Below, piece by piece: positions 12,483 through 13,075 of a stretch of 64,000 nt of DNA. Position 1 is the stretch's first letter, and each line of letters starts with the position of its first letter. The DNA lies in NCBI GenBank assembly GCA_009914755.4, contig CP086569.2, forward strand, positions 6,848,001 through 6,912,000, read 5' to 3'. The stretch is from the human T2T-CHM13v2.0 reference genome, Homo sapiens. The translations under genes and the position numbers were made by a program. Under the pieces are notes generated by a model. It did no database searches. It was not told the origin of the DNA and saw only the letters and a list, made by a program, of their open reading frames with translations.

Positions 12483-12619
12483 GGTCAGGCATGGTGGCTC
12501 ATGCCTGTAATTCCAGCATTTTGGGAGACTGAGGTGGGTGGATCACCTGAGGTCAGGAGTTTGAAACCAGCATGGCCAATATAGTGAAACTCTGTCTCCA
12601 CTAAAAATACAAAAATTAG
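12483..12619 (+). mobile_element. older Alu, left half, interrupted by the young Alu; it continues at 12930-13075
   Basis: The Alu left monomer and A-rich linker ...ctaaaaatacaaaaattag are followed immediately by a new GGCCGGGCGCGG Alu start. Confidence 0.85.
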
Positions 12620-12929
12620 GCCGGGCGCGGTGGCTCACGCCTGTAATCCCAGCACTTTGGGAGGCCGAGGCGGGCGGATCACGAGGTCAGGAGATCGAGA
12701 CCATCCCGGCTAAAACGGTGAAACCCCGTCTCTACTAAAAATACAAAAAATTAGCCGGGCGTAGTGGCGGGCGCCTGTAGTCCCAGCTACTTGGGAGGCT
12801 GAGGCAGGAGAATGGCGTGAACCCGGGAGGCGGAGCTTGCAGTGAGCCGAGATCCCGCCACTGCACTCCAGCCTGGGCGACAGAGCGAGACTCCGTCTCA
12901 AAAAAAAAAAAAAAAAAAAAAAAAAAAAA
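12620..12929 (+). mobile_element. young AluY element of Ya5-like subtype, near-consensus, with intact CpGs, a pure poly(A) tail of about 29 nt and a target site duplication
   Basis: The element is almost identical to the AluY consensus, with GCGTAGTGG, CTACTTGGGAGG and GAGATCCCGCCACTG variants that I recall as Ya5-diagnostic. The 17 bp duplication AAAAATACAAAAATTAG flanks it at 12603-12619 and again after the tail. Confidence 0.85.
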
Positions 12930-13075
12930 TACAAAAATTAGCTAAGTGTGGTGGTGGATCGGGATGCTGAGGCAGATAGATCACTCAAACCTAGGAGACA
13001 GAGGTTGCAGTCAAATTCACACCATTGCACTCCAGCCTGAGTGACAGAGCCAGACTCTGTCTCAAAAATAAAAGG
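12930..13075 (+). mobile_element. older Alu, right half (continuation of 12483-12619)
   Basis: It resumes with tacaaaaattagctaagtgtggtgg..gcagtcaaattcacaccattgcactccagcctgagtgacagagccagactctgtctcaaaa. Confidence 0.85.

What the first reader, a model, noticed from the sequence alone, without database searches (positions are those of the whole stretch)
12483..13075. Very young AluYa5-type insertion with a perfect 17-bp target site duplication, nested in an old Alu: a candidate insertion polymorphism
The Alu at 12620-12929 is essentially at consensus. All CpG sites are retained (gccgggcgcgg, ggccgaggcgggcgg, cacgaggtc, ccgggaggcgg, gcgagactccg). It has a pure poly(A) tail of about 29 nt and is flanked by the identical 17 bp AAAAATACAAAAATTAG, which is the A-rich linker of the older Alu it split. 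It carries GCGTAGTGG, CTACTTGGGAGG and GAGATCCCGCC, which I recall as Ya5-diagnostic. Elements with this little decay are typically human-specific and often still dimorphic in populations. Long pure A-tails are themselves length-polymorphic.
Basis: partly seen in the sequence, partly recalled or inferred. Interest (0 to 1): 0.55.

Follow-up and report, generated by a model that had tools for sequence, protein, structure and literature searches.

The report
Young AluYa5 nested in old Alu
A perfectly preserved, recently inserted human AluYa5 retrotransposon sits in the A-rich middle of a much older Alu; it is a textbook, ordinary event that may or may not still vary between people, which these tools could not test.

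Summary
Window 12619/12620-12899 is a full-length Alu with no mismatch or gap against the AluYa5 consensus. All five Ya5 diagnostic changes are present, with no extra changes, and all 24 CpGs are retained. It has a pure A-run of 30 (12900-12929). It is flanked by the exact 17-bp repeat AAAAATACAAAAATTAG (12603-12619 and 12925-12941).

Removing the insert and one repeat copy rebuilds one old AluS-like element. That host is about 18% diverged, keeps 1 CpG and has its own 10-bp target-site duplication. The mechanism is L1-driven target-primed reverse transcription, with the first nick at TTTT/AG. This is the known dominant hotspot for sense Alu-into-Alu insertion (Levy et al. 2010, about 15,759 cases). 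An older example lies at 41.05-41.65 kb in the same window.

Flanking DNA matches human contaminant contigs at 100%. Zero substitutions imply an age under about 3-4 Myr, so the insertion is human-specific by inference. A drift model gives about 0.5-0.6 probability that it still segregates. "Candidate polymorphism" is therefore fair but untested: every attempt to find an empty allele failed.

It is a poor source-element candidate, because the first TTTT terminator is 1337 bp downstream. It is ordinary and of an already known kind. The reference genome holds about 2,700 Ya5/8 copies.

The parts
12473..12482 (+). Left copy of the host (old) Alu's own target-site duplication, GCATATAATA. It extends to 14 bp with one mismatch, AAAT/AAAG + GCATATAATA, from 12469.
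   Evidence: (family D9)
12483..12602 (+). Left arm of the old AluS-like host, up to the left-arm/linker boundary (...CTCCACT).
   Evidence: the reconstructed host aligns end to end with AluSx, with 17.8% substitutions and 1 of 24 CpGs left.
12603..12619 (+). Left copy of the young insertion's target-site duplication, AAAAATACAAAAATTAG, which is the host's A-rich linker. The first L1 endonuclease nick is inferred on the bottom strand between 12602 and 12603 (5'-TTTT/AG-3'). G12619 could instead be Alu position 1.
   Evidence: nick model from PMC2836564 and PMC4607524.
12620..12899 (+). AluYa5 body (consensus positions 2-281, or 1-281 if G12619 is counted). It is identical to the consensus and carries all five diagnostic bases. 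The Pol III A box is at element position 13 and the B box at position 73. It has 24 CpGs and no internal TTTT.
12900..12929 (+). Uninterrupted A-run of 30. This is the poly(A) tail of the Ya5: 25 nt if the last five A are assigned to the target-site duplication.
12925..12941 (+). Right copy of the young insertion's target-site duplication, AAAAATACAAAAATTAG. Its first five A overlap the A-run.
12942..13074 (+). Right arm and short A-rich tail (AAAAATAAAAG) of the old host Alu. It carries a 19-bp and a 4-bp deletion relative to AluSx.
13075..13084 (+). Right copy of the host Alu's own target-site duplication, GCATATAATA.
   Evidence: (D9)

Best explanation
A Pol III transcript of an AluYa5 source element was copied into this site by the LINE-1 ORF2 protein, through target-primed reverse transcription.

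Inferred steps:
1. The endonuclease nicked the bottom strand at 5'-TTTT/AG-3'. This is the boundary between the left arm and the A-rich linker of a pre-existing old AluS.
2. The exposed T-run annealed to the Alu RNA poly(A) and primed full-length reverse transcription.
3. The second nick fell 16-17 nt away, at the linker/right-arm boundary. Fill-in then duplicated the linker as a 16-17-bp target-site duplication.

The event is recent: most likely under about 1 Myr and under 3-4 Myr at 95%. It therefore happened after the human-chimpanzee split, in the human lineage. Since then nothing has happened to the copy. It has no substitutions, has lost no CpG and has an uninterrupted tail.

The element has no evident function. 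It is a neutral insertion in repeat-rich DNA. No cellular exon was detected in the part tested (PDB scan of 6.5-23.7 kb) or seen by eye among the remaining ORFs. It is either still segregating in humans (about 0.5-0.6) or recently fixed.

Shown directly: the anatomy, the subfamily, the zero divergence, the nested host and the human origin of the DNA. Inferred: the order of the nicks, the age, human specificity and population status.
For: - Exact 17-bp flanking repeat and an A-run of 30.
- 0 differences over 281 bp from Ya5. The only five differences from AluY are the published Ya5 diagnostics. The element differs from the printed Ya8 consensus at only three sites, and Ya8 differs from Ya5 by three diagnostic substitutions.
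- Deleting 12620-12941 restores one AluS-like element with its own 10-bp target-site duplication.
- The target site reads CACT|AAAAA on the top strand, which is TTTT/AG on the bottom strand. Levy et al. name this very site, and the linker between two nicks 15-16 nt apart, as the dominant hotspot of about 15,759 sense Alu-into-Alu insertions (PMC2836564).
- The duplication length (17) and tail (25-30, pure) sit in the middle of the ranges for 322 sequenced polymorphic Alus: duplications of 7-22 bp (mean 14), tails of mean about 29, 93% of them pure (PMC4607524).
- A second, old instance of the same nesting lies at 41050-41655.
- The flank 13222-14610 is 100% identical to four contigs from human oral, gut and lung metagenomes.
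- Clock and drift calculations.
Against: Nothing in the sequence contradicts the insertion mechanism. The weak points are these:
- Population status and absence from chimpanzee were not observed, only modelled.
- The drift model assumes a uniform insertion rate, Ne = 10,000 and neutrality. If most Ya5 activity was older, the probability of polymorphism falls.
- The AluY, AluSx and AluJo consensus sequences used for the host and for the other Alus were recalled from memory. Only the Ya5 assignment was cross-checked against printed sources.
- The genomic locus was not identified, so no catalogue of polymorphic Alus could be consulted.
Confidence: 0.93

Rival explanations
1. The insertion is the same young Ya5 event but is already fixed in all living humans. 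It would then be a human-specific, monomorphic Alu and not a dimorphism.
For: About 75-80% of young reference Alu copies are monomorphic. For the sister Yb lineage, 499 of 2,433 are polymorphic (PMC3831846). Even given zero substitutions, the model leaves 0.4-0.5 for fixation. Many Ya5 copies carry only the subfamily-defining changes (PMC10606232).
Against: Zero substitutions at 24 fast-mutating CpGs and a 25-30-nt uninterrupted tail both favour the youngest age class. The tail length matches the mean of about 29 nt for proven polymorphic Alus.
Confidence: 0.42
2. An older Alu at this position was overwritten by gene conversion from a Ya5 copy. The element would then look young while the insertion itself is old and possibly shared with apes.
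For: Gene conversion among young Alus is documented at about the 2% level (PMC554112).
Against: Conversion does not restore a 25-30-nt pure A-tail or a perfect 17-bp duplication. All 281 bp, including both ends, are at consensus, with no mosaic boundary. An old insertion would also have decayed duplication copies, as the host's flanks and arms have.
Confidence: 0.02
3. The flanks are not one split Alu. They are two unrelated old Alu fragments, a left monomer and a 5'-truncated copy, that happen to abut a Ya5. The 17-bp 'duplication' would then be just the conserved Alu linker seen twice.
For: The 17-mer equals the AluS consensus linker. Exact repeats of 17 bp or more between neighbouring Alus occur eight other times in this window.
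Against: The two fragments join without overlap or gap into a complete Alu. That Alu is bracketed by its own 10/10 target-site duplication, GCATATAATA, exactly at its 5' end and after its tail. This rival needs three separate coincidences of position and two undecayed linkers in about 18%-diverged elements. The single-insertion reading matches the known hotspot.
Confidence: 0.01
4. This copy is itself an active Ya5 source element that is still producing new insertions.
For: It has an exact consensus body, intact A and B boxes and a pure tail over 20 nt. These are three of the four hallmarks used by Konkel et al..
Against: The first TTTT Pol III terminator on the sense strand is 1337 bp beyond the tail. 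A distance of about 15 bp or more strongly reduces retrotransposition (Comeaux 2009, as cited in PMC4607524). No expression or offspring data are available.
Confidence: 0.05

Closest known systems
AluYa5 subfamily (HS-1/PV) of human Alu SINEs
   Same: Identical to the subfamily consensus at all 281 positions, including the five diagnostic substitutions at 89, 96, 145, 174 and 237. It has the dimeric structure with an internal A-rich linker, Pol III A and B boxes and a poly(A) tail.
   Different: Nothing differs. It lacks the extra changes of Ya8, Ya5a2 and Ya4a1, so it is a plain Ya5.
Sense-orientation Alu-into-Alu insertions at the linker hotspot (Levy, Schwartz & Ast 2010, NAR; PMC2836564)
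   Same: Sense orientation. First nick at the suboptimal TTTT|AG site between the left arm and the linker. Second nick at the linker/right-arm boundary. The linker lies between the two nicks.
   Different: Levy et al. score these events as having very short duplications (TT or TTA), because the duplicated linker merges with the inserted element's A-tail in RepeatMasker output. Read directly here, the whole 16-17-bp linker is visibly duplicated. The inferred second nick is 1-2 nt 3' of their AATT|AG.
Validated polymorphic Alu insertions of the 1000 Genomes pilot (Konkel et al. 2015; PMC4607524)
   Same: Same subfamily as 48% of that set. It has 0.0% divergence, like 26 of their 156 Ya5 elements. 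Duplication length, tail length, tail purity and a near-canonical endonuclease site all fall within their ranges.
   Different: Those loci were shown by PCR to be present or absent among people. Here no empty allele has been seen. This copy also lacks the nearby TTTT terminator that marked their 28 candidate source elements.
Classic Alu dimorphism markers (ACE I/D, TPA25, PV92, APO, FXIIIB, D1, A25, B65, CD4)
   Same: Young human Alu insertions of the same general kind.
   Different: None of their PCR primers, as I recalled them, occurs in the window with up to 3 mismatches, so this is not one of those loci.

Membership tests
AluYa5 subfamily | AluY-type dimeric backbone of about 281 bp with an A-rich linker and a poly(A) tail | tested here: met
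   Global alignment shows 0 gaps and only the five diagnostic differences from AluY. The backbone was cross-checked against the printed Ya8 consensus.
AluYa5 subfamily | All five diagnostic substitutions: T>C 89, C>A 96, G>A 145, C>T 174, G>C 237 | tested here: met
   One search lists exactly these five. The definition comes from PMC4607524.
AluYa5 subfamily | Absence of the additional diagnostic changes of derived subfamilies (Ya8, Ya5a2, Ya4a1, Yb8) | tested here: met
   No other difference from Ya5. The element differs from the printed Ya8 consensus at only three sites, the number of changes separating Ya8 from Ya5. It has 13 mismatches and lacks the 7-bp duplication relative to Yb8. G>C at 237 is present, so it is not Ya4a1.
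L1-mediated target-primed reverse transcription insertion | Target-site duplication of about 6-22 bp directly flanking the element plus tail | tested here: met
   16-17 bp, perfect. The expected range is from PMC4607524.
L1-mediated target-primed reverse transcription insertion | 3' poly(A) tail abutting the downstream duplication copy | tested here: met
   A-run of 30, uninterrupted.
L1-mediated target-primed reverse transcription insertion | First-nick site resembling 5'-TTTT/AA-3' on the strand opposite the element | tested here: met
   TTTT/AG, a 5/6 match. Only 22.5% of validated insertions match exactly, and TTTT|AG is the named Alu-linker site.
Human Alu insertion polymorphism (dimorphic locus) | Both filled and empty alleles exist in human populations | tested here: inconclusive
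   No scan or look-up returned the locus across the junction. Only the modelled probability of 0.5-0.6 is available.
Human-specific Alu insertion | Empty orthologous site in chimpanzee and other apes | not testable with these tools
   No primate genome collection is available. Indirectly, P(0 substitutions after 6 Myr) is 0.002-0.009.
Candidate Alu source element (hallmarks of Konkel 2015 and Comeaux 2009) | Full length, intact A and B boxes, pure tail over 20 nt | tested here: met
Candidate Alu source element (hallmarks of Konkel 2015 and Comeaux 2009) | Pol III TTTT terminator within about 15 bp of the tail | tested here: not met
   The first TTTT is at 14267, which is 1337 bp downstream.

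The most novel reading that the evidence does not exclude
The insertion is a segregating Alu dimorphism that is rare or population-restricted and possibly uncatalogued. It lies only about 200 bp from a (TAGA)12 microsatellite (13142-13189). The pair would then form a compound Alu/STR haplotype system, in which a unique-event marker dates and polarises the linked fast-mutating repeat, as at the CD4 locus (comparison from my own knowledge).
Probability: 0.1. Interest if true: 0.25.

Novelty: already known. Interest (0 to 1): 0.1.

Why it matters
It matters little beyond routine annotation. If the locus is dimorphic, it is one more identical-by-descent, homoplasy-free marker for human population genetics. 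Its long pure A-tail and the neighbouring tetranucleotide repeat would add length variation. It is also a very clean teaching example of the Alu-in-Alu linker hotspot, because both copies of the duplicated linker are still perfect. It reveals no new biology. The reference genome holds about 2,700 Ya5/8 copies, and many of them are at consensus.

Tried and rejected
(1) Searching for the empty allele in public assemblies. A 44-mer from the host left arm plus the duplication hit one metagenome contig (L001). That contig turned out to be an unrelated Alu locus sharing the 44-mer, so my estimate that the 44-mer was unique was wrong. Two genome-contig scans and one viral-contig scan found nothing.

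(2) Exact-ORF look-ups. One flank ORF (13403-13708, minus strand) retrieved four human-contaminant contigs that are 100% identical to the window. All of them end at 13222-13329, before the GATA-rich tract or just inside it, so they do not reach the site. Eleven other ORFs around or across the junctions are not on record.

(3) A concatenated flank-ORF homology search was swamped by low-complexity candidates. It returned only two irrelevant titi-monkey proteins.

(4) Identifying the locus.
- Rfam at gathering threshold found nothing.
- There is no CpG island other than the young Alu itself.
- Primers of nine classic Alu markers are absent.
- A PDB scan of ORFs from 6.5-23.7 kb found only L1 ORF2 and syncytin-like ERV env fragments.
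- The ORFs from the rest of the window looked non-coding by eye and were not scanned further.
- The gene or chromosomal position remains unknown, so no catalogue could be consulted.

(5) The published polymorphism level for Ya5 itself. Table 1 of PMC1239904 is not held, and Carter 2004 and Roy-Engel 2001 are not in the library. I used the Yb figure of 499/2,433 instead.

(6) Rejected readings: gene conversion, two independent Alu fragments, and an active source element. See the rival explanations.

Full report
**What is there**

A complete Alu body ends with ...GAGACTCCGTCTC at 12899. It is followed by 30 uninterrupted A (12900-12929). The whole unit is bracketed by the exact 17-mer AAAAATACAAAAATTAG, at 12603-12619 and 12925-12941.

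Two small ambiguities are inherent in the sequence:
- The last five A of the run can belong to the tail or to the right repeat copy, so the tail is 25-30 nt.
- G12619 can be the last base of the repeat or Alu position 1, so the duplication is 16-17 bp.

**Subfamily**

Globally aligned, the 281-bp body has no mismatch and no gap against the AluYa5 consensus as I recalled it. It differs from AluY at five positions only: 89 T>C, 96 C>A, 145 G>A, 174 C>T and 237 G>C. Konkel et al. 2015 (PMC4607524) list precisely these five changes, with the same numbering, as the Ya5 diagnostics.

To avoid relying on memory for the backbone, I compared the element with the AluYa8 consensus (GenBank KT192064.1) printed in PMC10988039. 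It differs at three sites only, and Konkel states that Ya8 differs from Ya5 by three diagnostic substitutions. At those three sites the element has the AluY state. Against Yb8 it has 13 mismatches and lacks the 7-bp duplication. The element is therefore a plain Ya5 with 0.0% divergence and all 24 CpGs intact.

**Comparison with its neighbours**

The window is 24% Alu. Of 45 full-length copies, this one is 100% identical to its consensus with 24 CpGs. The other 44 have a median identity of 83.2% (maximum 89.8%) and a median of 3 CpGs (maximum 13). The element is also the only stretch of the 64 kb that meets CpG-island criteria.

**The host**

Joining 12483-12619 to 12942-13075 gives a 271-bp sequence that aligns end to end with an AluS consensus. 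It shows 17.8% substitutions, a 19-bp and a 4-bp deletion, and 1 of 24 CpGs left. This old element has its own target-site duplication, GCATATAATA, at 12473-12482 and 13075-13084. The two arms therefore arrived as one element and were later split.

This matters because the 17-mer equals the consensus Alu linker. Exact repeats of 17 bp or more at Alu-sized spacing occur nine times in this Alu-dense window and never in shuffles. The other eight are homologous stretches of neighbouring Alus or a minisatellite. What makes this one a target-site duplication is its position exactly at both ends of a complete element plus tail, inside a host that reassembles cleanly.

**Mechanism**

The anatomy is the signature of LINE-1-driven target-primed reverse transcription. 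The pre-insertion top strand reads ...CTCCACT|AAAAATACAAAAATTAG|C..., so the bottom-strand first nick is 5'-TTTT/AG-3'. That is one base off the canonical TTTT/AA, which only 22.5% of validated insertions match exactly.

Levy, Schwartz and Ast 2010 (PMC2836564) analysed about 15,759 sense-orientation Alu-into-Alu insertions. [quoted passage not shown] Their explanation is this same TTTT|AG site at the left-arm/linker boundary, a second nick at the linker/right-arm boundary, and the 15-16-nt linker in between. The present element is a pristine example in which both linker copies are still perfect.

The same window contains an old example. At 41050-41655 an AluS sits in the linker of an AluJ-like host, which has its own duplication. 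The duplication length (17) and the tail (25-30, pure) fall in the middle of the ranges for 322 sequenced polymorphic Alus. Those ranges are 7-22 bp (mean 14) for duplications and a mean of about 29 for tails, with 93% of tails pure.

**Species and age**

A flank ORF led to four contigs assembled from human oral, gut and lung metagenomes. They are 100% identical to window 13222-14610 over up to 1357 bp, so the window is human DNA.

I used the standard rates of 0.15%/Myr at non-CpG positions and 0.9-1.5%/Myr at CpG positions (PMC554112; the 6-10-fold range is). With these the element should acquire 0.78-1.07 substitutions per Myr. Seeing none gives a 95% upper age of 2.8-3.8 Myr, and P(0 substitutions after 6 Myr) is 0.002-0.009. 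Human specificity is thus strongly inferred but was not observed.

**Is it polymorphic?**

All routes to an empty or second filled allele failed:
- The genome and viral scans were empty.
- Eleven junction-proximal ORFs are not in the exact-protein index.
- A chimeric homology search was swamped by low-complexity sequence.
- The retrieved human contigs stop at 13222-13329, before or just inside the GATA-rich tract, at least 280 bp short of the site.

As a substitute I computed, with an exact Wright-Fisher chain, the probability that an insertion sampled in one haplotype is still segregating, as a function of its age. With Ne = 10,000, 25-year generations and 4-5 Myr of uniform activity, the unconditional polymorphic fraction is 0.20-0.25. 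This matches the 499 of 2,433 reference Yb copies reported as polymorphic (PMC3831846). Conditioning on zero substitutions raises it to 0.51-0.62. The long pure tail points the same way. 'Candidate polymorphism' is a fair label, but fixation is almost as likely.

**Source-element potential**

The body, the A and B boxes and the tail are ideal. However, the first TTTT Pol III terminator on the sense strand is 1337 bp beyond the tail. A distance of about 15 bp or more strongly reduces retrotransposition (Comeaux 2009, via PMC4607524). One of the defining hallmarks is therefore tested and not met.

**Context and locus**

I found no cellular exon. Rfam at gathering threshold gave nothing. A PDB scan of ORFs from 6.5-23.7 kb matched only L1 ORF2 and a syncytin-like ERV env. 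The primers of nine classic Alu markers, as I recalled them, are absent. The chromosomal position remains unknown, so no catalogue could be consulted.

**Verdict**

The kind of feature is already known in every respect:
- The reference genome holds about 2,739 Ya5/8 loci (PMC5796560).
- Many copies carry only the subfamily-defining changes (PMC10606232).
- The nesting geometry is the commonest Alu-in-Alu arrangement.

Interest is low.

Noticed in passing
window 41050-41655 (+): An older instance of the same architecture. An AluS (about 41185-41463 plus A-tail) is inserted in sense orientation into the A-rich linker of an AluJ-like host. The host has its own target-site duplication, TTCTCATTTCA.
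   Followed up: partly
window ~1200-8500 (+): Remnant of a class-I (gamma-retrovirus-like) endogenous provirus. It has a protease DTGA motif, a reverse transcriptase with YIDD (3282-4076) and an integrase-like ORF. An env transmembrane fragment (8139-8432) weakly resembles syncytin-2 (PDB 7oix, E = 1.4e-3).
   Followed up: partly
window ~54100-60000 (-); also ~22800 (+): A roughly 6-kb L1 on the minus strand. It has a long open ORF1-frame piece (57988-59082), and its ORF2 is broken into at least six pieces. A separate L1 ORF2 C-terminal fragment lies near 22.8 kb (matches PDB 8sxt, E = 4.5e-14).
   Followed up: no
window 13098-13280, core 13142-13189: A (TAGA)12 microsatellite inside a GATA-rich tract, about 200 bp 3' of the young Alu. 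Three of the four human-contaminant metagenome contigs end inside this tract (13222-13254) and the fourth ends just outside it (13329), so short-read assemblies seem to break there. The repeat is probably length-polymorphic.
   Followed up: no
window 25050-25980: A (GGAT/GAAT)n-type minisatellite. It gives ORFs of up to 308 aa rich in IHPS on the minus strand and a local GC skew of +0.30.
   Followed up: no
window 12576-12619 and L001 2823-2866: A 44-mer of the host Alu's left arm has five differences from the AluSx consensus, yet it recurs exactly in an unrelated Alu locus from a metagenome contig. The shared derived bases hint at a minor AluS source variant rather than chance.
   Followed up: partly
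window 13400-14300: A long CA/TG- and CATG-rich low-complexity tract (ACACATGCAT-like) that yields many overlapping ORFs rich in H, C, T, Y, M and V on both strands. One of these spurious ORFs (13403-13708, minus strand) has been called as a 'gene' in at least six human-associated metagenome assemblies.
   Followed up: partly
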